Part shown: positions 13,541 to 22,620 of the stretch, one piece after another
Numbering within the stretch: position 1 is the first letter of the stretch
How the letters are laid out: the number at the start of each line of letters is the position of its first letter
The notes under the pieces: model-generated
The model's database searches: none
Told to the model about the DNA's origin: nothing
The model's input: only the letters and a program-made list of their open reading frames with translations
Assembly: GCA_027486585.1 (NCBI GenBank)
Contig: JAIXOU010000119.1
Location: 17,061-81,060 of the forward strand
DNA: 64,000 nt
Source of the DNA: Verrucomicrobiaceae bacterium
GTDB taxonomy: Bacteria; Verrucomicrobiota; Verrucomicrobiia; Verrucomicrobiales; Verrucomicrobiaceae
Direction: 5' to 3'
Program-made: the position numbers and the translations under genes

Positions 13541-13620
13541 GGCATCAGATCACGGTGATGTGAGGATAAAGTCACCTAACGTCGAGTGATAATTAAAAAG
13601 AAGAAGCAATCAATTTATTG

Positions 13621-14370
13621 ATGAAACCTTCTGAGTGTACTGAGCACCGTGATGACCTATCTAGACGCGGCTGGATCAAGCGTTTCCTGTTTGGATCTGC
13701 TGTCTCACCTTCTTGCGCAGCGCTGTTTTTGTCAGAGGTGACCGAGGCTGCGCAAAGCGGGCCAGGTGTGTTAAAGTTAAACGTGGCTACCTATCCTGCC
13801 TTGGCAACGGTAGGCGGCTCGGTGCAACTGAACTTCAGCCCGATCTATAAACCGCTAACAATCAACCGAGCCACTAGCACAGTGTTCGTGACACTGGATT
13901 CTGTCTGCACGCATGCAGGCTGCACGGTGAACAAGTTTCTGTCGGCAAACGGTTCTATGAGATGCCCTTGTCATGGCTCGCGTTACGATGTCTATGGCCG
14001 GGTTATCGGTGGACCTGCAGATGCAGATCTAGTTTCTTACAAGACGGCTTTTTCACCAAGTTCAAACATCATCACAGTGGAGGTGCCTTCACTGGGATTG
14101 AATGTGAATTCCGTCAGCTTCTATTCACGCTCGGGAAATACCACGCGACTAAAACTGACGTTTCAGGTCACTGCCTTTAGCACTTATGAGGTGCATTACC
14201 AGAGTAGTCTAACGGGCGCCTATACCGTCGTGCCCTTTGCGATGACTCCGACCGGCGCAGCAACGGAGACGTCGCTAGAGCATTTCGATGACGGCGAGCG
14301 CACGGTGTATGTGGATGCGACGGGAAATCAGGGTTTCTTTGTCGTGGCTGTGGTGCTGTCAGAAGTGTGA
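13621..14370 (+). CDS. Tat-exported Rieske [2Fe-2S] protein with a C-terminal beta-rich extension
   Basis: SRRGWIKRF Tat-like motif; CTHAGC and CPCHGSRY Rieske boxes; about 80 extra C-terminal residues. Confidence 0.85.
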   Translation: MKPSECTEHRDDLSRRGWIKRFLFGSAVSPSCAALFLSEVTEAAQSGPGVLKLNVATYPALATVGGSVQLNFSPIYKPLTINRATSTVFVTLDSVCTHAGCTVNKFLSANGSMRCPCHGSRYDVYGRVIGGPADADLVSYKTAFSPSSNIITVEVPSLGLNVNSVSFYSRSGNTTRLKLTFQVTAFSTYEVHYQSSLTGAYTVVPFAMTPTGAATETSLEHFDDGERTVYVDATGNQGFFVVAVVLSEV

Positions 14371-14379
14371 AGGAGTCTT

Positions 14380-15078
14380 TCAATCAACTAAGCTGCCACT
14401 GCGGATTTGGGCGATCTCCTGAGCATCGAAACCGAGCTGTTGAAGTTGTGACTCGCTCACCTTATTTTGCCGAACTTGGTGTGCATAAAGAAGCATTACA
14501 GTGGCGCGGCGCGTGGCCTCATCTGGGATCGACTCCGCCCAGACGAGTGCCGTTTCTGCGTGGCCTGCTGAGGCAATATTTTCACTGATGGATCTGAGAC
14601 TATTACCGAGTTCATCAAAGCGTGCCGTTTGGTTGAGCCACTCCGTCGCTTGGTCTGGAGCTATGCTAAACCAGAGAACAATTTGTGCATTCAAGAGCGC
14701 GGCATTTTCTGGCGTAGAAGGCGTGCCTTCCAGCTCAGAGATGCGGCTAGCGACTTCGGCTGCGGTGATGCCTGCACCTGTGCTGACAGGGATGATGGCT
14801 GGTTTTGGCAGACGTGGACTTGCTGGCTCCGGCACGACGGCGCTGAGCCAGAAGGGCGGTTCATCTTTGGGTGCCCGTAGCAGGCGGTCGCGCAGAGCTA
14901 CACTCGCGGATGCTGGTACATGGTTGACTGCGGCAGCTGCGGAGTCGGTCGCCGCGTTAACATGAGCATGACTGATCTCAGGCGCACCGATGCGGTAGCC
15001 AATCCAGCTAGCGCAGAAGATCACGCCGATGAGTGCAGCCAACTTTGTCGGTTTGGATTGCAGCAGCGCAGCATTCAT
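14380..15078 (-). CDS. Hypothetical membrane-anchored protein, last gene of the SPFH-ATPase operon
   Basis: N-terminal TM helix, Ala/Pro-rich linker, helical C-terminus (APDQATEWLNQ, TALVWAESIPDE); ATGA overlap with the ATPase. Confidence 0.65.
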   Translation of the reverse strand: MNAALLQSKPTKLAALIGVIFCASWIGYRIGAPEISHAHVNAATDSAAAAVNHVPASASVALRDRLLRAPKDEPPFWLSAVVPEPASPRLPKPAIIPVSTGAGITAAEVASRISELEGTPSTPENAALLNAQIVLWFSIAPDQATEWLNQTARFDELGNSLRSISENIASAGHAETALVWAESIPDEATRRATVMLLYAHQVRQNKVSESQLQQLGFDAQEIAQIRSGSLVD

Positions 15079-17006
15079 GCGACAGCAGTAGGCACGGTGA
15101 CGACGCTTTCTATCGCCGTATTTTCAGGTGAAGCGGCGGCTACTTCCATACCATCAAAGCGCAGCAGGCGGGCGCTATTGAAGATCACGAAGAAGGCGCT
15201 GAACTCGTGCAGGAAGGCGGCAAGCACTGGATTGACTAGACCAAGGCTGGAGGCCGTGACAGCGGCGATGATGAAGATGAAGCCACACAGCAGGTTTTGA
15301 TTGATGATGCCAACCGTGCGTGCAGAAAGCACCAGCAGATCAGCCAGACGGCGCAGGTCGCCAGACATGAGGGCGACGTCGGAAGTGTGGACGGTGATGT
15401 CGTTGCCCAGTGCCCCCATGGCGACGCCGAGATCGCCTTCCTTCAGCGCAGGCGCATCATTGAGACCATCGCCCACGACGAGCACGCGGTGGCCTTGCTG
15501 CTTGAGCAGGCGGATACGGGCGACTTTGTCCTCAGGCAGGCACTCGGCTTGGAAGTCGGTGATGCCGATGCTGCTGGCGATGTGCTGCGCGACTTCAGCG
15601 CGATCTCCAGTGAGCATGATGAAGTCGTTGATACCAAGACTGCGCAAGCGAGTGAGTGTTTCAGCAGCTTCATCACGGATACGGTCAGCGAGTAAAAATG
15701 TCGCGGTGTGTCGGCCATTCACACTCAGCAGGACAAGGCTGTGACGCGTCAGCAGTGAGGGATCGAGTGCGATCTCCATGCCATGACCACGTAGCCATGA
15801 CAGGCGGCCAATTTGGATTTTTTTTCCTTCGACTATGCCTTCAAGTCCGAGGCCGGGATGCTCGATGAGGTCGGTGACTTCAGGCAGCGCCAATGATTCG
15901 CCTGCATGAGCGATGGCGCGTGCCACGGGATGATTAGAGCTGCTTTCCAATGCGGCGGCGAGCCGTAGCGCGTCGTCTTTACTGATGGCAGCATCATGCA
16001 ACAGCACGTCTTCCAGATCGAGCCTGCCGACTGTGAGCGTGCCGGTTTTATCAAAGACGACGGTATCGACGAGGCGAGCTGATTCCAGATGGCGCACGCT
16101 TTTGATCAGCAGCCCCATCCGAGAACCTGCGGCGATGGCAGAGACCATGGCGCTGGGGCTGGCGAGCACGAAGGCGCAGGGAATGCTAACCACAAGCACG
16201 GCGATGGCTCGATCAATATCCTGAGTGAAGAAGAACACACTCACGGCGATGAGCATGATGAGCGGCGTGTAGTAGCGTGCGTAATCCTCTGCCATGCTGA
16301 TGATGGGAGCCTCGCTGGACTTCGCCTCCTCAATGATGCTCTGCACGCGCCCCATGACGGTGTCAGTGCCAGCGCCCGTGACGCGCGCGGTGAGAGCGCC
16401 GTTGAGATTGAGCGTGCCGGCAAAGATGTCGCTGTTCGTGCTGGCCTCCACGGGTGCTGATTCGCCCGTGATGCGGCTTTGATCCATCATGGCGCTGCCT
16501 GTGAGGATAACCGCATCCGCAGGCACGACCTCACCGGGACGCAGCACGATAATGTCGCCGAGATGCAGCTCAGCAGCTTCGACTTCCTCTTCCAACTCAC
16601 CGCGACGGCGGCGGGCGATGAGGCGATTTAGCTGACGTAGTTTGGATAGCGCCAGCTCAACACCGACGGTGGTTCTCTCCTCCATCATCTGACCAAAAAC
16701 GAGGATCACAGCGACGATTCCGCCGGTGAGGTAGCGCCCAGTGGCAAGGCATGCTGCCAGTGCGAGCACGACGTATTGATCCATATAAAACTGCGTGGCC
16801 GCGAAGCCACTGGCGCGGATGGCTTTGATCACGCCAAGCACGATGGGCAGCGCGACGATGAGCACGCCAGCTAGCGCGAGCAATGCTGGTAAAGTGGGCT
16901 GCTCTGGCCGTAGCCATGTCGTCAGAGCAGATGCTGTGAGCAGCGCTGTAGCAGCAAAGAGAAGCCGCAGTCGGCTCAGCGTTTGGCGGTCGAGATCGGC
17001 GTGCAT
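15075..17006 (-). CDS. P1B-type heavy-metal-translocating P-type ATPase with atypical IPC motif
   Basis: TGES, DKTGTLT, SNHP, GDGLNDAPAL; TM motif VVSIPCAFVLASP; C-terminal LHEFS...FNSARLL; no N-terminal metal-binding domain. Confidence 0.92.
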   Translation of the reverse strand: MHADLDRQTLSRLRLLFAATALLTASALTTWLRPEQPTLPALLALAGVLIVALPIVLGVIKAIRASGFAATQFYMDQYVVLALAACLATGRYLTGGIVAVILVFGQMMEERTTVGVELALSKLRQLNRLIARRRRGELEEEVEAAELHLGDIIVLRPGEVVPADAVILTGSAMMDQSRITGESAPVEASTNSDIFAGTLNLNGALTARVTGAGTDTVMGRVQSIIEEAKSSEAPIISMAEDYARYYTPLIMLIAVSVFFFTQDIDRAIAVLVVSIPCAFVLASPSAMVSAIAAGSRMGLLIKSVRHLESARLVDTVVFDKTGTLTVGRLDLEDVLLHDAAISKDDALRLAAALESSSNHPVARAIAHAGESLALPEVTDLIEHPGLGLEGIVEGKKIQIGRLSWLRGHGMEIALDPSLLTRHSLVLLSVNGRHTATFLLADRIRDEAAETLTRLRSLGINDFIMLTGDRAEVAQHIASSIGITDFQAECLPEDKVARIRLLKQQGHRVLVVGDGLNDAPALKEGDLGVAMGALGNDITVHTSDVALMSGDLRRLADLLVLSARTVGIINQNLLCGFIFIIAAVTASSLGLVNPVLAAFLHEFSAFFVIFNSARLLRFDGMEVAAASPENTAIESVVTVPTAVA

Positions 17007-18109
17007 CAGCGGGAAAATTGGGGTGCAGGCTCGACCAAGATGGAGGGCGCGGTAGTGGACATGGGCACCAGCGTGCGGGAGTAGATCTGACTCATGGCAG
17101 CATCCAGAGACTCGCGCAGGATGCGCTGCGCGACGAGTTCTGGCTGGAGCTGGTAGTTCGCCAAGAGGGAGGTGAAGGCGCTGGCTTCACCGCGTGCGAC
17201 GGCGATGAGATCGGCACTGTAACCCTGTGCCCGCTGCAGGATGGCGGCGGCGTCACCTTGATACTGGGTGACGGTCTCGCCCTGATATTGCAGAGAGTTT
17301 TCTGCCAAAGTTTTGGCAAACTGACGGGCATTGACCACGTCTTCAAAAGCCGCAAGCACTTGCTTCGGTGGAGATAGTTCCACGATGTCGATACTGCTGA
17401 TGCGGATGCCAAGGTGCAAGTGGGTGACAGATTCTTGCAGGCTGGTTGCAGCTGCCTTTGCCACATCGCTGCGGGCTTCTGTTAGGCTGGCGTCGATCTT
17501 CCGCGCTGCGAGCTGGACAGCGAGACTGCGGCGCGTGAGGCGTGTGAGGAGTGTGCGGATGTCTGCACCGCCAGAAGTATAGGCAAAAGGTTCGGCGATG
17601 CGGTAGCGCAGAGTAAAGCGGCCCTGAATGACGTTGTAGTCGGCTGTTAGCGTGTAGCCATGTCTCACGGGATCAAGTGTCATGTTTTCATACATTGGAA
17701 ACTCTGCGCCTTCAATTTCCCTGGTGGCGAGTTCAGCGCTGAGCTGCGCGTCTGTCTTTTCGATGGGTTTGTCGGGATCGCCGATCTTGGTGCCGATCAG
17801 CGCCCAATCATTGAGTGGCAGGCTGAGATCACGACCCGTATCGAATCGTAGCACTTCATCAAACGGTGCCGGTAATCCGATGAGTAGGCCTGGGCCATGC
17901 AACTGTGTTTGCAGCCGACCCAGCCTGCGCACCAGCGCACTTTCCTGCGGCTGGATGCTGTGGATTCCGGAGATGGCATAGAGCGCCAGTAAGACGGCAA
18001 AAACCCAGCGCGCATGAGCGGTGAGCTGCTTGAGAAAAAGCAGCAATGCCTCGACGAGGTGGCCGTCGTTGCGCAGGGGTGTTTGAGCTGGTTTCATTGC
18101 AGGCATCAC
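17006..18109 (-). CDS. SPFH/band-7 protein, HflK-like
   Basis: TM anchor, then LVRRLG..GPGLLIGLPAPFD, LTADYNVI, YRIAEP, IVELSPPKQVLAAFEDV and a coiled-coil tail. Confidence 0.85.
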   Translation of the reverse strand: MMPAMKPAQTPLRNDGHLVEALLLFLKQLTAHARWVFAVLLALYAISGIHSIQPQESALVRRLGRLQTQLHGPGLLIGLPAPFDEVLRFDTGRDLSLPLNDWALIGTKIGDPDKPIEKTDAQLSAELATREIEGAEFPMYENMTLDPVRHGYTLTADYNVIQGRFTLRYRIAEPFAYTSGGADIRTLLTRLTRRSLAVQLAARKIDASLTEARSDVAKAAATSLQESVTHLHLGIRISSIDIVELSPPKQVLAAFEDVVNARQFAKTLAENSLQYQGETVTQYQGDAAAILQRAQGYSADLIAVARGEASAFTSLLANYQLQPELVAQRILRESLDAAMSQIYSRTLVPMSTTAPSILVEPAPQFSR

Positions 18110-19092
18110 GGATTGCGGTCGATGATGATGGCAGTTGGCGCACTTGGCGCGGACATCTCGATTGGCTTTACGGGATTGCCGTCGCCTTCTTTGGCCTTCA
18201 GCCAGTGAAAGGGGGCTACGCTGGTATCGAGCACGACGGTGGTGTTTTTATCCACGACGGTACGCAGACTTTGAAGCTCACGCAGGAAGCGGTAAAAGGC
18301 GGGATCTTTGCCATGCGCCGTAGCATAGACTGCGGCGGCCTCAGCTTCGGCTTTGCCACGTAGTTCCTCGGCCTCACGTTTGGCGTCGGCGATGAGAAAG
18401 GTGGCTTGCTTATCGGTTTCTGCCTTCATCTCGGCAGCCTTGGCACGCCCTTCAGCGCGGTATTGTGTGGCCTCACGCTTGCGCTCGGATCTCATGCGGC
18501 GGAAGACGGATTCAGTATTGGCCTCGGGTAACTGGATTTGGGTGATGCCAGTGGTGATGAGCTCGATACCGAGCTGCTGGGCTGCATCTGCTGCGGCCAG
18601 AGTGAGTATTTCTTTTTCCAAAGCAGGGATGGAAGCTCCAATACGCTCATCACCGACCAGATCAGCGAAGTCATGGCGGCCAAGCATGGTATTGCGCGCG
18701 CTGGTGATGAGTGCATCAAGTTTTTGTCGAGCAGGTTCAAAGTCGCGCACGGAAGTGTGAAATATCAGCGCCTCCTGCACGCGCCAAGTGAAGAATACGG
18801 GAACGATGACATTGCGCTGATCACGTGTGAGCGTCTCACTGAGGCGGATCTCGGCGTGTTGCAGGCGCTTGTCGATACGCACGATGTGCTCCAGCGGCAC
18901 GGGCAGTCGGAAGTGTAGGCCGGGTTGCTCGATGGCGCGCATGGGTTTACCGAAACGCATCACCAAAACGTGCTCGGCTTCATTGACCAAAAAGCAGCAG
19001 GCGAAAGCGAGGACGAGCAGCGCAGCTGCGGCGATGGAGACGAGGCGTAGGGTGACGGTGCGACTAATGCTGACAGGGGAGATTTCACTCAT
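18106..19092 (-). CDS. SPFH/band-7 protein, HflC-like
   Basis: LVMRFGKP..PGLHFRLP, LTRDQRNVIV..FTWRV, VFRRMRSERKREA, DPAFYRFLRELQS: HflC hallmarks. Confidence 0.88.
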   Translation of the reverse strand: MSEISPVSISRTVTLRLVSIAAAALLVLAFACCFLVNEAEHVLVMRFGKPMRAIEQPGLHFRLPVPLEHIVRIDKRLQHAEIRLSETLTRDQRNVIVPVFFTWRVQEALIFHTSVRDFEPARQKLDALITSARNTMLGRHDFADLVGDERIGASIPALEKEILTLAAADAAQQLGIELITTGITQIQLPEANTESVFRRMRSERKREATQYRAEGRAKAAEMKAETDKQATFLIADAKREAEELRGKAEAEAAAVYATAHGKDPAFYRFLRELQSLRTVVDKNTTVVLDTSVAPFHWLKAKEGDGNPVKPIEMSAPSAPTAIIIDRNP

Positions 19093-20909
19093 GGCTTTGG
19101 CATCGGGCTGGGGTTTTGAAGGAGGTTGTCGGTGTCAGGAGGGGCCATGTTCGGTGCGGGGATTTCACCTTTGCCCATGCGCACATAGCCTTCGATTTCC
19201 TGGTCAAAGGCTTCGAGAGATTTACCTGGTTTTGGGATGAGTGACTGGAGTGCAGGCGCGGCGCTGCTGGTGAAGTCTGGGTTCAGCACTTTTCTCAGAT
19301 CAAGCTGCGCTGGTAGGCGTGTCTGGAGGCTGTCATCGACAATGGCTTTCTTCGTTCCTCCGAGTGCCTCATCCAGGACGCGAAAGCCTTCGCGCCATTG
19401 ATACAGTGTCGGCTGCAAGGCCCAGGCGGCGCGGCGGCTTTCGAAGCGCGCCACTTGACCATTGACTTGGGCTTGGCGGTTCTGTGCCACGGACTCCGCA
19501 CCTGTCAGTGCGGCACCGGCATAGGCTTTGGCATTGTAGAGACTGTCTGTGTTGTTTGATTCGGCTTCATAGATGGCAGCTTCTTTATCCTCCATGGCAG
19601 AAATCACTTCTTGGAAGGTCTGAGCGACACTGACAGGCGGGTGGATGTCACGCAACAGCACATCTGTGATAGTGATGCCTGAGTTCAGGGAATCGAGTGC
19701 TGTCTGCAAGCGCTGACGAAACAGCGCACGCATTTCTTCGCGTGCCTCAGTCATGATTTGCTCTGCCTTGAGCGGTAATGCTAGGGCAAGTAGAACGCGC
19801 TGGGCTTCCTGTGCTAGCAGTGCCTCAGGCTGTGCGAGGGTGCGCAGATAGCGCACAGGATCACTGATGCGAAAAAGAATGGGCACGCTGATGGAAAGGA
19901 AGTCATCGCCACCGCCGACGAGGGACTGCTGCTCGCCTTCATAATGCGCACGCTCCCAGAGGATGGGCTGGCCAGGATCGGTGCGGAAGCCGAGCACGAC
20001 CTCACGAACCAGACTGGTATTCACGACTTCCACAGTGCCCAGTGGCCATGGCAAAGAAAGGTGTAAACCCGGCGCGAGTGGCTGGGACTGCCAGATACCT
20101 AAATGCTGGCGCACTCCATGGCTGCTCGCTGGCACTTCATGCAGGCAGGAATTAGCCCAGACACAGAAAGAAATCGTCGCCAACAATGACGGTAAGCTGT
20201 CGCGCACGATGGGCCACATCCACATGTCAGCGAGTTTCAGTGAGATATGCTCTTCGATCTCAGCAGTATTCTTTTCAGGCACGCAGGCACGCCACTCGCC
20301 ACGGAGCCAGGGATAAAAGAAAAACACTCCTGGTTGCGGCATCTGTGACCAGTGTCGGCGAGGCGTGTAAAGCTGCGCCGTGAGTCGGAAGAAAGTGTCG
20401 GTAGTAAGTAGCAGACAGAGACCAGCTAGCGCTGTCGCTAACCAACCATGCAGAGGCAACTGCAAATATAGTGCGGCGAGTAGCACACCGGCGCTGATAA
20501 AATGAATCAACACGACTCCATGCAACAGACAACGGGAGATGGGCGGCCATGCTTTTTTCCCAGTTGCTGCTAGGATGCCTGCAAAGGACAGTGCGGCTCC
20601 GATAAGCAGTCCGCCGATGGGCCAAGCAGGAACGAGAAGATCAGCAGGCTGCCATCCGTTACCTGTGATGATCCATGCGGCCAAACTGATGGCGGCGAGT
20701 AAGACGCCCGTGGCAGGTCGGGCAATGAGCAGCCCTGCGCCGAGCATCACCAGAGCTACTAGCGGCAGTAACCAGAAAGTTTTCCAAACCAAGATCAAGA
20801 CCAGTAAACCCACGGCTTCAATGCCCAACAAAGCAGGCGGTAGGGAGGGAGAGTTTGCGGGTTTTGACATGAAAGCCAGAGAATGAAAGTCCCGGCCACG
20901 CGCTCGCAT
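19089..20909 (-). CDS. Polytopic membrane domain fused to an HflK-like SPFH domain
   Basis: About 6-7 N-terminal TM helices, then PGLHLSLPWPLG, FRISDP, LLRDIHPPVSVAQTFQEV and a coiled coil. True start may be MSKPANS at 20870. Confidence 0.8.
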   Translation of the reverse strand: MRARGRDFHSLAFMSKPANSPSLPPALLGIEAVGLLVLILVWKTFWLLPLVALVMLGAGLLIARPATGVLLAAISLAAWIITGNGWQPADLLVPAWPIGGLLIGAALSFAGILAATGKKAWPPISRCLLHGVVLIHFISAGVLLAALYLQLPLHGWLATALAGLCLLLTTDTFFRLTAQLYTPRRHWSQMPQPGVFFFYPWLRGEWRACVPEKNTAEIEEHISLKLADMWMWPIVRDSLPSLLATISFCVWANSCLHEVPASSHGVRQHLGIWQSQPLAPGLHLSLPWPLGTVEVVNTSLVREVVLGFRTDPGQPILWERAHYEGEQQSLVGGGDDFLSISVPILFRISDPVRYLRTLAQPEALLAQEAQRVLLALALPLKAEQIMTEAREEMRALFRQRLQTALDSLNSGITITDVLLRDIHPPVSVAQTFQEVISAMEDKEAAIYEAESNNTDSLYNAKAYAGAALTGAESVAQNRQAQVNGQVARFESRRAAWALQPTLYQWREGFRVLDEALGGTKKAIVDDSLQTRLPAQLDLRKVLNPDFTSSAAPALQSLIPKPGKSLEAFDQEIEGYVRMGKGEIPAPNMAPPDTDNLLQNPSPMPKP

Positions 20910-20949
20910 GGCCGGGATGAAGGGTGAACTGCTGAGTTGAGGATTAGCC

Positions 20950-22620
20950 TTATGGTTTCGGACGAACGAGCAAGACCTGGCCGTCTTCGGCGAACTCCAG
21001 CAATGCCTGTGCTTTGGTCAGGAAGCCGCCAGATCCGTTGGGTGCATTGGAGCGGTGTGCTGCTGCACCGTATGGATGGGCCTGGATATTGATCAGGAAG
21101 GTACCAGCGCCAAAGATGGCGTCTGTGCTGATGACACCCGAGCTCTCCCAGAGACCTGCGGAATAGGCGCTGGTCAAGTTACCGTCGCGACCAGCCACAT
21201 AGCCGTAGTTGAAGGTGGATTGCAGCTTTGCTGCGTAGGCGTTGTTGCGATTGAGGGTCCACATACCGGCGTTGCGGGCCTTGGCTGTATAGACGGCATT
21301 GGCTGGGGAATTGGTGTCTTCACAAACCACGATGAAATCCTTCGTGACAGCGATGTTGTCGATGCTCACTGGATAGTCTGGGCCAGTAAGGTCACCCTGT
21401 GTGTAGGTGCCAATGGCACCCGTGACTGGAGCGGTTAGGCGACCTGTGCTCGCGCCAGAATAGCTGCCTGCTGGGTAAATAATGGTGTCTGCATTATAGA
21501 CGATGTTCAGCGTGCCATTGGCCAGTGGGTTCACTGGATTCATGGTCAATTCATAGAGACGACCAAGGCGGTTCGGGCCCGAACCACCTGTAGTGGCAAG
21601 GAAAACGCTGCGAGTAGGCTGCGTGGGGTCAAATTCTGCGTCCTCGACACGCACTAGGCCGAAACCACCAACGACGTCTGCCTGAATGGAAAGTTGGGTC
21701 CCAGTGAGATTGGCTGCATTTGGGATCTCGACCCACTTCGTGGCAAGGCTGCCAGAGGTGAAGGTGCCTTCATTGTGCTGGGCTGCGTTTCCGCAGAGGA
21801 CATAGAGCTTACCACCCGTGAGACCATTTTTATCGAGCACGCTATTGGAGCGACGGAGCTTGGTGCCCACATACATATAAGTGTAGGAGACAGGGCTGGC
21901 GCTAGGTGCAGGGCCGTCTTCGGTAAAGATGACGACTGTTTTGTCATCACGACGCGGCTGCACGATAGTGGTCTCGCGGGCTGCACGGCCCATGGCTGGA
22001 ATCGTGTACATTTTGCCATCAGCAACGACCACGACTTGGGAACCATTTGCATTGTAGTTGCCAGTGCCAGACTCCTCGTTGGTGAAGTAGAGCGGGCGAT
22101 CCATGCCGTGCTCACGTCCGGCAAAAGAACCGGAGCAGAAACGGGTGAAGCCAGCGGTATCACCTTCGAGTGGTGGGCGCGTTCCCAGTGTGCCAGCGGC
22201 CTGGGTGTTTTCCAGGAACAGTTCTTTGTGAGCGACCGTACCATTAAGGATAGCGCCAGTGGTGCTATTCATGGAAAAGCGTGAAACGAAGGCACCCTTG
22301 TAGCGTGTCGAACCCGCGAATGGGCGGCTATTGCTAGTGCTATTGATTTCGTGGGCTACGAAAAGAATATTCTCATTCGTCACGCTATCTTTGTAGATGC
22401 CCATGGCATCAGGAATGCCACAGAAGGTGTAGTCAGTGGCTCCCACTGGGCCAGTGCCGGACGTCAGAGGAACACGATCACCCACAGTCACGATCGGGGT
22501 GAACGTGAAGTCTGAGGTCGGGGTGGCGCTGAGGTAGGAAGACTCGGAAGTCAGCACGCCCTGAGCGAAGGCGGATGTCGAGGCGAGCGCAAGGCCGGCC
22601 AGAAGTTTGGAGAAGTGCAT
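20950..22620 (-). CDS. phoX: PhoX-family (DUF839) alkaline phosphatase
   Basis: Ligand-pattern motifs in order: GIPDAMG, VAHE, RFCSG, TNEE, ARE, TED, RVED, IDNI, VCED, WESSG, NIQAH. Sec-type signal, no twin-Arg. Confidence 0.78.
   Translation of the reverse strand: MHFSKLLAGLALASTSAFAQGVLTSESSYLSATPTSDFTFTPIVTVGDRVPLTSGTGPVGATDYTFCGIPDAMGIYKDSVTNENILFVAHEINSTSNSRPFAGSTRYKGAFVSRFSMNSTTGAILNGTVAHKELFLENTQAAGTLGTRPPLEGDTAGFTRFCSGSFAGREHGMDRPLYFTNEESGTGNYNANGSQVVVVADGKMYTIPAMGRAARETTIVQPRRDDKTVVIFTEDGPAPSASPVSYTYMYVGTKLRRSNSVLDKNGLTGGKLYVLCGNAAQHNEGTFTSGSLATKWVEIPNAANLTGTQLSIQADVVGGFGLVRVEDAEFDPTQPTRSVFLATTGGSGPNRLGRLYELTMNPVNPLANGTLNIVYNADTIIYPAGSYSGASTGRLTAPVTGAIGTYTQGDLTGPDYPVSIDNIAVTKDFIVVCEDTNSPANAVYTAKARNAGMWTLNRNNAYAAKLQSTFNYGYVAGRDGNLTSAYSAGLWESSGVISTDAIFGAGTFLINIQAHPYGAAAHRSNAPNGSGGFLTKAQALLEFAEDGQVLLVRPKP

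What the first reader, a model, noticed from the sequence alone, without database searches (positions are those of the whole stretch)
16150..16200. P1B ATPase has IPC in place of CPC/SPC/CPH, with an HEFS helix
Seen: the DNA reads gtg gtt agc att ccc tgc gcc = VVSIPCA, so the first ligand of the metal-binding tripeptide is Ile, with a Ser one position earlier. The last TM segment reads LHEFSAFFVIFNSARLL, close to the P1B-4 HEG(T/S) signature. DKTGT, TGES, HP and GDGxND are intact, so the pump core is not decayed. Inference: altered substrate specificity or an unclassified P1B subclass.
Basis: partly seen in the sequence, partly recalled or inferred. Interest (0 to 1): 0.62.

Follow-up and report, generated by a model that had tools for sequence, protein, structure and literature searches.

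The report
Ile-Pro-Cys metal pump tied to PhoX
This metal-pumping ATPase really does carry Ile-Pro-Cys where its relatives carry Cys-Pro-Cys; the change is old and conserved, it marks a distinct branch of an uncharacterised pump family that always follows three scaffold (SPFH) genes, and here it is inherited together with a secreted PhoX-like phosphatase, so it probably supplies that enzyme's metal.

Summary
The 643-aa P1B ATPase (window 15075-17006, minus strand) reads VVS-IPC-AFVLASP in M4 and L-HEFS-AFFVIFNSARLL in M6, and all catalytic motifs are intact. It is not an error: all 120 closest homologues carry [S/A]IPC, and Ile is encoded by ATT, ATC and ATA in different genomes.

Trees place it outside P1B-1, P1B-2 and P1B-4. 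It sits in a strongly supported clade of pumps that always follow three SPFH (HflK/HflC-like) genes. That four-gene module also occurs in Rhizobium, Klebsiella, Pseudomonas and Aquitalea, and by annotation matches the zinc-starvation-induced HmtA cluster of P. aeruginosa. Most members carry CPC + H-N.

One subclade changed once to [I/L/M]PC + H-E, gained a Cys in M1 (C86) and often one in M5 (C574), and has no His-rich N-terminus. Inside it, the window's branch is fused to a divergent, Sec-type PhoX-family gene. In 401 class genomes, pump and PhoX-like gene occur in the same four genomes, always adjacent.

The best reading is a scaffolded exporter with a remodelled, P1B-4-like (Cys/His/Glu) site that supplies metal, probably Fe2+, to the exported enzyme. 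The metal and the direction of transport are inferred, not shown. This is a new variant of a known kind.

The parts
15075..17006 (-). P1B-type ATPase, 643 aa, eight TM helices, no N-terminal metal-binding domain
   Evidence: ORF and translation; Pfam E1-E2_ATPase + Hydrolase; TIGR01525 485.7 bits; AF2 model pLDDT 89.4, pTM 0.84, helices MA 7-32, MB 38-66, M1 71-88, M2 92-125, M3 234-261, M4 264-296, M5 553-587, M6 593-616; Foldseek best matches are P1B pumps
16176..16184 (-). Codons for I275-P276-C277, the M4 triplet (IPC) at the helix break
   Evidence: 121 of 121 close homologues have IPC; I/L/M in 30 of 30 clade members against C in 49 of 55 other SPFH-linked pumps
15198..15209 (-). Codons for H600-E601-F602-S603 in M6 (HEFS)
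   Evidence: E601 in 30 of 30 clade members against N in 32 of 55 (otherwise T, A and others) in the other SPFH-linked pumps; it aligns with HEGS of the genome's own P1B-4 paralogue
16749..16751 (-). Codon for C86, a Cys gained near the periplasmic end of M1
   Evidence: Cys in 28 of 30 [I/L/M]PC+HE pumps against 4 of 55 other SPFH-linked pumps; helix limits
15285..15287 (-). Codon for C574, a Cys gained in M5, four residues before the position of CopA Tyr688
   Evidence: Cys in 12 of 13 PhoX-linked and 9 of 17 other clade members, never in the 55 other SPFH-linked pumps; register taken from the LpCopA alignment
16038..16052 (-). DKTGT phosphorylation motif (319-323)
   Evidence: invariant in A2
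17006..18109 (-). SPFH protein A (367 aa, HflK-like); its stop overlaps the ATPase start
   Evidence: Pfam Band_7; TIGR01933 131 bits, below cut-off; found immediately upstream of the pump in most loci of the clade examined
18106..19092 (-). SPFH protein B (328 aa, HflC family)
   Evidence: Pfam Band_7 98 bits; TIGR01932 HflC 170.6 bits, above its cut-off of 134.4
19089..20909 (-). SPFH protein C (606 aa): about 240 aa of multi-helix membrane domain followed by an HflK-like SPFH domain
   Evidence: Pfam Band_7 at 264-451; no Pfam family for the N-terminal 240 aa; long HflK-type first genes (568-672 aa) also head the Rhizobium and Klebsiella modules
20950..22620 (-). Divergent PhoX-family beta-propeller protein (556 aa) whose N-terminus lacks a twin-arginine motif (Sec-type signal)
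   Evidence: PF05787 34 bits, partial match; no sequence hit to the PDB; AF2 pLDDT 90.8; Foldseek top hit P. fluorescens PhoX 4a9v/3zwu, E 1.5e-15, TM 0.59, 13% identity; N-terminus MHFSKLLAGLALASTSAFAQG
14380..15078 (-). 232-aa membrane-anchored protein with no known family; its start overlaps the ATPase stop
   Evidence: no Pfam or NCBIfam match; homologues or genes of about 200 aa at the same position in L125-L129 and L144
20890..20917 (-). 12-bp GC-rich hairpin with a T-rich tail between phoX-like and the first SPFH gene; probable terminator or attenuator

Best explanation
The gene encodes an active P1B-type transport ATPase. It belongs to an uncharacterised, cross-phylum family whose members are always co-transcribed behind three SPFH (HflK/HflC-like) scaffold genes; P. 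aeruginosa HmtA is, by gene order, the one studied member. In the ancestor of one verrucomicrobial subclade the membrane site was rebuilt. The first Cys of CPC became a hydrophobic residue (Ile, Leu or Met). The Asn after the invariant M6 His became Glu. A Cys appeared in M1 (C86) and often another in M5 (C574). The cytoplasmic entry region gained a short insertion and new polar residues, and members of the subclade have no His-rich N-terminal tail. The resulting ligand set, Cys277 + His600 + Glu601, converges on the Cys/His/Glu set of Fe2+/Co2+-exporting P1B-4 pumps. In the window's branch the whole module is inherited together with a Sec-type, PhoX-family phosphatase. I propose that the pump exports the enzyme's transition-metal cofactor, most likely Fe2+, from the cytoplasm into a periplasmic space organised by the SPFH assembly, so that the enzyme can be metallated after export. 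Shown here: the sequence state, its conservation, its single origin, the correlated substitutions, the SPFH linkage, and the co-occurrence with the PhoX-like gene. Inferred: the direction of transport, the identity of the metal, the cage-like role of the SPFH proteins, and the hand-over of metal to the PhoX-like enzyme.
For: Intact pump. Conservation: 121 of 121 IPC; synonymous Ile codons. Phylogeny: the SPFH-linked clade has SH-aLRT 100, separate from ZntA, SPC/HEGST pumps and CopA; [I/L/M]PC+HE clade 30 rows, 99; PhoX-linked subclade 13 rows, 100. Correlated changes: C275->I/L/M 30/30, E601 30/30, A604/F605 30/30, C86 28/30 against 4/55, C574 21/30 against 0/55, insertion at 67-70; no His/Cys-rich N-terminus in any of 40 IPC proteins against 25% of CPC relatives. 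SPFH module conserved in Verrucomicrobiota, Rhizobium and Klebsiella plasmids, Pseudomonas sp. 286, Aquitalea and a Verrucomicrobiales MAG. The P. aeruginosa PA2435-PA2439 cluster (HmtA + HflC/HflK-family genes) is induced by Zn depletion (PMC4542158; PMC11761036). PhoX linkage: same gene order in Prosthecobacter, Luteolibacter and Haloferula, G252, G177 and G445. In 401 class genomes the pump at >=60% identity and the PhoX-like gene occur in exactly the same 4 genomes, about 4 kb apart (Fisher p = 9e-10). At least 33 contig lengths are shared between the two homologue lists. The PhoX-like protein has the PhoX fold and no twin-arginine motif. P1B-4 site = SPC + HEGxT, with His essential (PMC8880997). 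PhoX depends on an iron-calcium cofactor (Yong et al. 2014, as cited in PMC8812569).
Against: No experiment and no expression data were available. The [I/L/M]PC+HE change predates the PhoX linkage: 17 clade members have no PhoX-like gene and instead sit beside ZnuA-type binding proteins, ABC-3 permeases, an ArsP_1+DUF1980 pair, a TonB-dependent receptor or a COG0523 GTPase. So the motif change is not explained by PhoX, and it could still serve zinc. HmtA, the only studied relative, was reported as a Zn/Cu importer (PMC8456098). The PhoX-like protein is only 13% identical to the solved PhoX, and conservation of its Fe/Ca ligands was not tested. M. tuberculosis CtpG works with APC in M4 (PMC13460109), so a non-liganding first residue need not change specificity. 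A hairpin between the phoX-like gene and the SPFH genes may separate their transcription. Spatial proximity of C86 or C574 to C277 could not be measured, because model coordinates are not exposed.
Confidence: 0.5

Rival explanations
1. It is still a zinc pump of the HmtA type, serving zinc acquisition or allocation under scarcity. IPC is then a tolerated variant of CPC that does not change the substrate, and the PhoX-like neighbour is merely co-regulated or co-transferred.
For: The nearest non-PhoX clade members lie in ZnuABC-type, COG0523 and TonB-receptor loci. The P. aeruginosa HmtA cluster is induced by Zn depletion. CtpG uses APC and still transports Cd. The adjacent binding proteins score slightly better against the zinc AztC model than against MntC.
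Against: The change is a coordinated package, not one substitution: Cys lost, Glu gained, two Cys gained, entry region rebuilt. PhoX-family enzymes are not known to use zinc. The co-occurrence with the PhoX-like gene is perfect across 401 genomes and six genera or families. The binding-protein scores are far below their cut-offs and nearly tied.
Confidence: 0.27
2. It carries a different cargo altogether, such as Mn2+, Co2+, Ni2+ or a non-metal, or it acts mainly as a regulatory or structural partner of the SPFH assembly with little transport.
For: The M4 triplet is unusually variable across the SPFH-linked family. It includes forms with no Cys at all (IPS, YPD, FPD, FPA, VPT, GPS), which suggests relaxed or shifting ligand requirements.
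Against: Within the IPC clade, C277, H600, E601, the exit-path Glu109 and every catalytic motif are invariant. That argues for a working ion site and cycle.
Confidence: 0.15
3. It is a divergent member of the P1B-4 (SPC/HEGxT) subfamily.
For: xPC + HE; H600 and E601 align with the H and E of this genome's P1B-4 paralogue.
Against: Two trees separate it from the SPC/HEGST clade by strongly supported branches. Its closest relatives carry CPC + HN. Gly->Phe and Thr->Ala break HEGxT. The genome already holds a canonical P1B-4 (L001).
Confidence: 0.03
4. It is a sequencing error, a strain-private mutation or a decaying pseudogene.
For: None found.
Against: 121 of 121 homologues carry IPC; synonymous codon variation; two substitutions are needed from a Cys codon; the ORF and motifs are intact.
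Confidence: 0.01

Closest known systems
HmtA (PA2435) of Pseudomonas aeruginosa and its PA2437-PA2439 HflC/HflK-family neighbours
   Same: A P1B ATPase without a classical ferredoxin-like metal-binding domain, encoded in one cluster with three HflK/HflC-family SPFH genes and a small hypothetical gene. The cluster belongs to a metal-scarcity response. A Pseudomonas sp. 286 homologue with the same four-gene module falls in the sister clade in the tree.
   Different: The proteobacterial members examined here carry CPC + H-N-x-S/T, and the Rhizobium and Klebsiella ones have His-rich N-termini. This protein has IPC + H-E-F-S, gained Cys86 and Cys574, no His-rich tail, and a PhoX-like partner. HmtA was reported as an importer of Zn and Cu. 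The PAO1 sequence itself could not be fetched, so its placement rests on gene order plus the Pseudomonas sp. 286 homologue.
P1B-4 ATPases (sCoaT, CzcP, PfeT, CtpD/CtpJ)
   Same: xPC in M4 plus His-Glu at the same M6 positions; no classical N-terminal metal-binding domain; the conserved exit-path Glu in M2 (E109 here, E120 in sCoaT); eight TM helices.
   Different: Not the same clade. Ile instead of Ser, Phe instead of Gly, Ala instead of Thr in HEGxT. Extra Cys in M1 and M5. Obligatory SPFH operon partners.
CtpG of Mycobacterium tuberculosis (APC in M4) and the PacL-Ctp 'effluxosomes'
   Same: A P1B pump with a non-liganding first residue before Pro-Cys that is still functional, and P1B pumps that depend on co-encoded membrane scaffold proteins.
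   Different: PacL proteins are small DUF1490-type proteins, not SPFH proteins. CtpG is classed as P1B-2 and exports Cd. There is no exported enzyme partner.
P1B-6 subfamily / CtpC (hallmark N-x18-H-N-x-S/T)
   Same: The CPC relatives of this pump share the H-N-x-(S/T) half of that hallmark in M6.
   Different: In the sequences examined the M5 Asn lies 28, not 18, residues before the His. The IPC clade has H-E, not H-N. No P1B-6 reference sequence was available for a tree.
HflK/HflC-FtsH complex of E. coli
   Same: One partner passes the HflC equivalog model and two resemble HflK. All are membrane-anchored SPFH proteins encoded as overlapping genes.
   Different: Three SPFH genes instead of two. 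The first carries an extra multi-helix membrane domain of about 240 aa. No ftsH lies in the operon; a P-type ATPase occupies the client position.

Membership tests
P1B-type (heavy-metal) P-type ATPases | DKTGT, TGES, HP and GDGxND motifs; a Pro-containing M4 triplet; eight TM helices (MA, MB, M1-M6) | tested here: met
   (TIGR01525 485.7 bits, above its cut-off of 346)
P1B-4 | SPC in M4 | tested here: not met
   IPC; Ile in 121 of 121 close homologues
P1B-4 | HEGxT in M6 | tested here: not met
   HEFSA: His and Glu are present, but Gly->Phe and Thr->Ala
P1B-4 | Groups with SPC/HEGST pumps in a tree | tested here: not met
   Separated by branches with SH-aLRT 99-100
P1B-2 (ZntA type) | CPC in M4, Lys in M5, Asp in M6 (ADTG) | tested here: not met
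   IPC, I579 and H600 at the aligned positions; ZntA lies outside the clade
P1B-1 (CopA type) | CPC, YN in M5, MxxSS in M6, CxxC N-terminal domain | tested here: not met
   F578-I579 and HEFSA at the aligned positions; no N-terminal domain; TIGR01511 scores below its cut-off
P1B-5 / P1B-6 / P1B-7 | PCP, SCA or CSC in M4 (as listed in PMC13460109); for P1B-6 also N-x18-H-N-x-S/T | tested here: not met
   IPC and H-E; no reference sequences for a tree, so a deeper relationship of the whole SPFH-linked family to P1B-6 remains open
SPFH-linked (HmtA-like) P1B pumps | Encoded directly behind three SPFH genes (long HflK-like, HflC-like, HflK-like) | tested here: met
   for the window; the same order in most loci of the clade examined, from three phyla; in a few loci the third gene, or in Aquitalea (L046) two of the three genes, was not detected by tblastn
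SPFH-linked (HmtA-like) P1B pumps | Monophyly with other SPFH-linked pumps | tested here: met
   clade support SH-aLRT 100 in both trees
SPFH-linked (HmtA-like) P1B pumps | Includes P. aeruginosa HmtA itself; responds to zinc scarcity | not testable with these tools
PhoX alkaline phosphatase (the neighbouring gene) | PhoX beta-propeller fold | tested here: met
   Foldseek 4a9v/3zwu, E 1.5e-15, TM 0.59; next hit E 1.7e-4; PF05787 34 bits against a cut-off of 24
PhoX alkaline phosphatase (the neighbouring gene) | Conserved Fe/Ca cofactor ligands and phosphatase activity | not tested
   13% identity and no residue-level alignment to the solved enzyme was available; an invariant Cys162 and many invariant Asp/Glu residues exist, but they were not mapped onto the active site

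The most novel reading that the evidence does not exclude
SPFH-linked P1B pumps are periplasmic metallation modules. The three HflK/HflC-like proteins would build a cage around the pump, as HflK/C does around FtsH. The pump would discharge a scarce metal into that enclosed periplasmic space, so that exported apo-enzymes are loaded without losing the metal to the environment. The IPC/HEFS branch would be the version retuned from zinc to Fe2+ and dedicated to a Sec-exported PhoX-family phosphatase. That would link iron allocation directly to phosphate scavenging, and it would reinterpret the puzzling 'importer' HmtA as an allocation pump.
Probability: 0.25. Interest if true: 0.85.

Novelty: new variant of a known kind. 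Interest (0 to 1): 0.66.

Why it matters
P1B ATPases are classified, and their substrates predicted, from the M4 triplet and the M5/M6 signatures. This work defines a conserved signature, [I/L/M]PC + HE(F)S with a relocated Cys, that is on none of the published lists. It also shows that the signature arose once inside a large, almost unstudied family of pumps that are obligately encoded with three SPFH scaffold genes.

That family includes HmtA. Its reported import activity has never fitted the accepted P1B mechanism, and the literature read here notes its HflK/C-like neighbours only in passing.

The strict co-inheritance with a Sec-type PhoX-family enzyme gives a concrete, testable case of a pump dedicated to loading one exported metalloenzyme. 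It also gives SPFH/HflK-C assemblies a possible client other than FtsH. If PhoX-type phosphatases in abundant freshwater and soil Verrucomicrobiota depend on such a pump, that bears on how iron and phosphorus limitation interact.

Tried and rejected
- **Sequencing error or private mutation:** rejected by conservation and synonymous codon variation.
- **P1B-4 membership:** rejected by two trees.
- **The Ser before IPC as a substitute ligand:** rejected, because Ala replaces it in 46 of 121 sequences.
- **Exact P1B-6 hallmark N-x18-HNx[ST]:** not found in any of 97 sequences. The alignment shows a spacing of 28 residues.
- **Typing the ZnuA-like binding proteins next to non-PhoX IPC modules as Zn or Mn/Fe:** inconclusive. 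The AztC and MntC models score close to each other and far below their cut-offs.
- **Fetching P. aeruginosa HmtA for the tree:** The Lewinson 2009 and Yong 2014 papers are not held.
- **The listing of cluster members for organism names of the 50% representatives:** almost no names returned.
- **Sequence-level link of the PhoX-like protein to solved PhoX:** none with phmmer or a 7-sequence profile. Only the fold comparison worked.
- **Measuring distances between C86, C574 and C277 in the model:** impossible, because coordinates are not exposed.
- **Promoter and terminator scan:** nothing above the shuffled background except the phoX-proximal hairpin.
Full report
**1. The observation**

The minus-strand ORF 15075..17006 encodes a 643-residue protein. 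Residues 271-286 read VVSIPCAFVLASPSAM. The codons ATT-CCC-TGC for I275-P276-C277 lie at window 16184..16176, inside the coordinates given. The last helix reads LHEFSAFFVIFNSARLL, with H600-S603 at 15209..15198.

TGES (180-183), DKTGT (319-323), H359-P360 and GDGLND (512-517) are present, and they are invariant in a 57-sequence alignment. Pfam finds E1-E2_ATPase and the HAD hydrolase domain. NCBIfam's P1B model TIGR01525 scores 485.7 bits against a cut-off of 346. An AlphaFold2 model is confident (pLDDT 89.4, pTM 0.84). It shows eight membrane helices, with M4 broken at residues 274-276. Foldseek matches CopA, ZntA and sCoaT about equally, at 28-30% identity.

**2. Not an error and not a private mutation**

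The 120 best homologues among 5.8 billion proteins (68-94% identity) come from Prosthecobacter, Luteolibacter, Haloferula and many verrucomicrobial MAGs. All carry IPC, and 120 of the 121 sequences (query included) have HEFSA. The residue before IPC is Ser in 75 and Ala in 46, so that Ser is not a conserved ligand.

Across 22 genomic loci of the clade, 18 read IPC, with Ile encoded by ATC (11), ATT (6) and ATA (1); 2 read MPC and 2 LPC. The amino acid is held while the codon drifts. A Cys codon is two substitutions away from ATY. It is no longer needed.

**3. Where the protein belongs**

This genome holds three other P1B pumps:
- SPC + HEGST, a canonical P1B-4;
- TPCP + QEIID, P1B-5-like;
- CPC + MPLSS, P1B-1-like.

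I built a maximum-likelihood tree of 117 P1B sequences. It included these paralogues, E. coli ZntA and CopA, plasmid-borne pumps and 50%-identity representatives. The window's protein falls in a clade of 67 rows with SH-aLRT 100, and that clade excludes ZntA, the SPC/HEGST pumps and CopA. A second tree of 97 rows with more clade members gives the same picture. The likeness of HEFS to the P1B-4 signature is real at the level of columns: His and Glu align with those of the genome's own P1B-4 paralogue. It is nevertheless convergent, and Gly->Phe and Thr->Ala break HEGxT.

**4. The family is defined by three SPFH genes**

In the window the pump is the fourth of five genes whose junctions overlap by 1-4 bases. 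The order is:
- a 606-aa protein with a membrane domain of about 240 aa and an HflK-like SPFH domain;
- a 328-aa protein that passes the HflC equivalog model;
- a 367-aa HflK-like protein;
- the ATPase;
- a 232-aa anchored protein with no known family.

tblastn and annotation tables show the same three SPFH genes directly upstream of the pump in most of the loci examined from this clade. In a few loci the third gene was not detected by tblastn, and in the Aquitalea locus (L046) two of the three were not. The loci are:
- about 40 loci from many verrucomicrobial families;
- a Rhizobium tumorigenes plasmid;
- a Klebsiella aerogenes conjugative plasmid;
- Pseudomonas sp. 286, Aquitalea and a Verrucomicrobiales MAG.

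Pumps outside the clade lack these genes (Enterobacter, Chelativorans and Phycisphaera plasmids).

The published P. aeruginosa cluster PA2434-PA2439 has the same make-up: hypothetical, HmtA, [PA2436], HflC-family, HflC, HflK-family. It is induced by zinc depletion at both RNA and protein level (PMC4542158; PMC11761036). HmtA is described as an atypical Zn/Cu importer (PMC8456098). I could not fetch the PAO1 sequence. HmtA's membership therefore rests on gene order and on the Pseudomonas sp. 286 homologue, which sits in the sister clade.

**5. The M4 triplet in this family**

Most members carry CPC, with an invariant M6 His that is usually followed by Asn (LHNxGS or LHNxST). The triplet is unusually variable, however: CPG, CPI, CPS, IPS, YPD, FPD, FPA, VPT and GPS also occur.

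The [I/L/M]PC forms make one clade of 30 rows (SH-aLRT 99). That clade is sister (97) to the CPC clade holding the proteobacterial modules. So the change happened once.

Column-by-column comparison shows that it was a package:

| Change | [I/L/M]PC+HE clade | Other SPFH-linked pumps |
|---|---|---|
| C275 -> I/L/M | 30/30 | Cys in 49/55 |
| N601 -> E | 30/30 | Asn in 32/55 |
| T/S604 -> A, and F605 | 30/30 | mostly T or S at 604, Leu at 605 |
| Cys at position 86 (M1) | 28/30 | 4/55 |
| Cys at position 574 (M5) | 21/30 | 0/55 |

In addition there is an insertion of three to four residues at 67-70 between MB and M1, and there are new polar or aromatic residues at the start of M1 (T71, Q77, Y/F78). 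None of 40 IPC proteins has a His/Cys-rich N-terminus, whereas a quarter of the CPC relatives do. C277, H600, the exit-path Glu109 and all catalytic motifs stay invariant. This is the pattern of a rebuilt site, not of decay.

By helix register, C574 lies four residues before the position of CopA Tyr688. It is also about as deep in the membrane as C277 (helix limits), and C86 lies near the periplasmic end of M1. Whether either Cys contacts the site could not be measured, because model coordinates are not exposed. That step is inference.

**6. What the site resembles**

In P1B-4 pumps the proposed high-affinity site is built from SPC and HEGxT. The His is essential and serves as a built-in counter-ion. 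The Glu swings to release the ion, and an M2 Glu lines the exit (PMC8880997). The IPC clade keeps exactly these elements: Cys, His, Glu and the M2 Glu. P1B-4 pumps export Fe2+, Co2+ and related ions (PMC10654040).

Losing one thiolate and gaining a carboxylate is the direction expected for a shift from thiophilic Zn/Cd/Cu toward Fe2+/Co2+/Mn2+. There is also a counter-precedent. M. tuberculosis CtpG has APC and still needs it for Cd export (PMC13460109). So a hydrophobic first residue does not by itself prove a new substrate.

**7. The PhoX-like partner**

Forty bases upstream of the first SPFH gene ends a 556-aa exported protein (20950-22620). Its Pfam match to PhoX is weak and partial (34 bits). 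Neither the sequence nor a 7-sequence profile finds any solved structure. Its AlphaFold2 model (pLDDT 90.8), however, matches P. fluorescens PhoX with E = 1.5e-15 and TM 0.59, eleven orders of magnitude better than any other fold. It is a divergent member of the PhoX family (13% identity). I did not test whether the iron-calcium site is kept.

The four readable N-termini in the cassette lack a twin-arginine motif. From my own knowledge, the characterised proteobacterial PhoX enzymes are Tat substrates, exported already folded.

The same order (PhoX-like, three SPFH genes, IPC pump, a gene of about 200 aa) is found in:
- Prosthecobacter dejongeii, a Luteolibacter and Haloferula chungangensis;
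- two genomes of other families, G252 and G177;
- a congener, G445.

In a sample of 401 genomes of the class, the pump at >=60% identity occurs in four genomes. The PhoX-like gene occurs in four genomes. They are the same four, and in each the two genes are about 4 kb apart on one strand (Fisher p = 9e-10). At least 33 contig lengths are shared between the two independent homologue lists.

The cassette is patchy. Only one of four other genomes of the genus has it, and none of four other genomes of the family. G177 carries a second module with LPC that has no PhoX-like gene.

**8. A limit on that inference**

The 17 clade members outside the PhoX-linked subclade also have [I/L/M]PC + HE, but their genomes have no PhoX-like gene. 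Their neighbours are ZnuA-type binding proteins, ABC-3 permeases, ABC ATPases, an ArsP_1 + DUF1980 pair, a TonB-dependent receptor and a COG0523 GTPase. These are metal-acquisition loci, as for HmtA.

So the site was rebuilt first, and the PhoX-like gene was captured later. Substitutions private to the PhoX-linked subclade are Q72, Y78, M107, S283 and S289. Attempts to type the neighbouring binding proteins as Zn or Mn/Fe were inconclusive.

**9. Most likely mechanism**

- **Shown:** an intact P1B pump with a conserved, singly derived, multi-residue remodelling of its membrane site; obligate genetic coupling to three SPFH proteins; and, in this branch, strict co-inheritance with a Sec-type PhoX-family enzyme.
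- **Inferred:** the pump works as an exporter, like the characterised P1B pumps other than HmtA; its Cys/His/Glu site prefers a borderline metal such as Fe2+; the SPFH proteins assemble around it, by analogy with HflK/C around FtsH and with PacL scaffolds around mycobacterial Ctp pumps; and the exported ion loads the PhoX-like enzyme after Sec export.

PhoX activity depends on iron (Yong et al. 2014, cited in PMC8812569). I put this reading at about 0.5. The main rival is a zinc-handling HmtA-type pump whose PhoX neighbour is incidental, at about 0.27. Another cargo or a mainly structural role comes to about 0.15.

**10. Novelty and verdict**

Full-text searches found no paper that describes an IPC signature, an SPFH-defined P1B family, or a PhoX-linked P-type ATPase. 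The SPFH neighbours of HmtA are mentioned only in passing.

The finding is a new variant of a known kind: a new signature and a new genetic context within the P1B ATPases. It is computationally well supported as a real and distinct entity, and it is unresolved as to metal and direction of transport.

Noticed in passing
window 20890-20917 (minus strand): A 12-bp GC-rich hairpin followed by a T-rich tail overlaps the annotated ATG of the first SPFH gene. It could be the terminator of the PhoX-like gene, an attenuator, or a structure that hides the start codon. The true start of the SPFH gene may be the Met 13 codons downstream (MSKPANS...).
   Followed up: no
window 13618-14370 (plus strand): A 250-aa Rieske [2Fe-2S] protein with a twin-arginine-like N-terminus (SRRGWIKRF) lies convergent to the cassette. 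Homologues at 41% identity sit at the same place in Prosthecobacter dejongeii (L125) and in G445 (L144), but not in the Luteolibacter or Haloferula loci. An exported iron-sulfur protein beside a putative iron-delivery cassette may be relevant.
   Followed up: partly
window 14380-15078 (minus strand): A 232-aa membrane-anchored protein with no Pfam or NCBIfam family, translationally coupled to the ATPase stop codon. A gene of about 200 aa occupies the same position in every PhoX-linked cassette examined. It is a candidate adaptor or metallochaperone.
   Followed up: partly
window 19089-20909; also L038 1634-3652 and L040 1915-3621: The first SPFH gene of the module always carries an extra N-terminal multi-helix membrane domain (about 240 aa here, no Pfam match). 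The protein is 568-672 aa long in the Rhizobium and Klebsiella modules as well. This domain is conserved across phyla and has not been described.
   Followed up: partly
proteins P0137, P0181, P0155, P0170, P0148; locus L014/L132: Some members of the SPFH-linked pump family have no Cys at all in the M4 triplet (YPD, FPD, FPA, VPT, GPS, IPS), yet they keep the M6 His. These may transport something other than soft metals.
   Followed up: no
L129 and L130 (genome G177, contig 1, about 2.82 Mb and 3.18 Mb): One genome carries two complete SPFH x3 + pump modules: one IPC/HEFS with the PhoX-like gene, and one C-LPC/HETS without it. This is a natural pair for comparing the two states.
   Followed up: partly
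L040 (Klebsiella aerogenes plasmid pYD-K10_1, 65.5-79.2 kb): The CPC-type module sits on a conjugative plasmid, with a DUF4198 gene upstream and a Tn3-family transposase downstream. So the module is horizontally mobile in Enterobacteriaceae.
   Followed up: no
L126 3520-4359 and L127 3458-4288: A DUF4394 gene directly precedes the PhoX-like gene in the Luteolibacter and Haloferula loci, but not in the window.
   Followed up: no
G000 contig C61, 30287-31900 (L003): The same genome encodes a P1B pump with TPCP in M4 and QEIID in M6 (P1B-5-like). With the canonical P1B-4 (L001) and a CcoI/CopA-like pump (L004), that makes four different P1B signatures in one genome, and no ZntA-type pump.
   Followed up: partly
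L131 12424-13608 and L153 614-2691: A COG0523 (CobW-type) GTPase and an ArsP_1 permease + DUF1980 pair flank LPC and IPC modules that lack the PhoX-like gene. Gene sets like these are typical of zinc-starvation regulons.
   Followed up: partly
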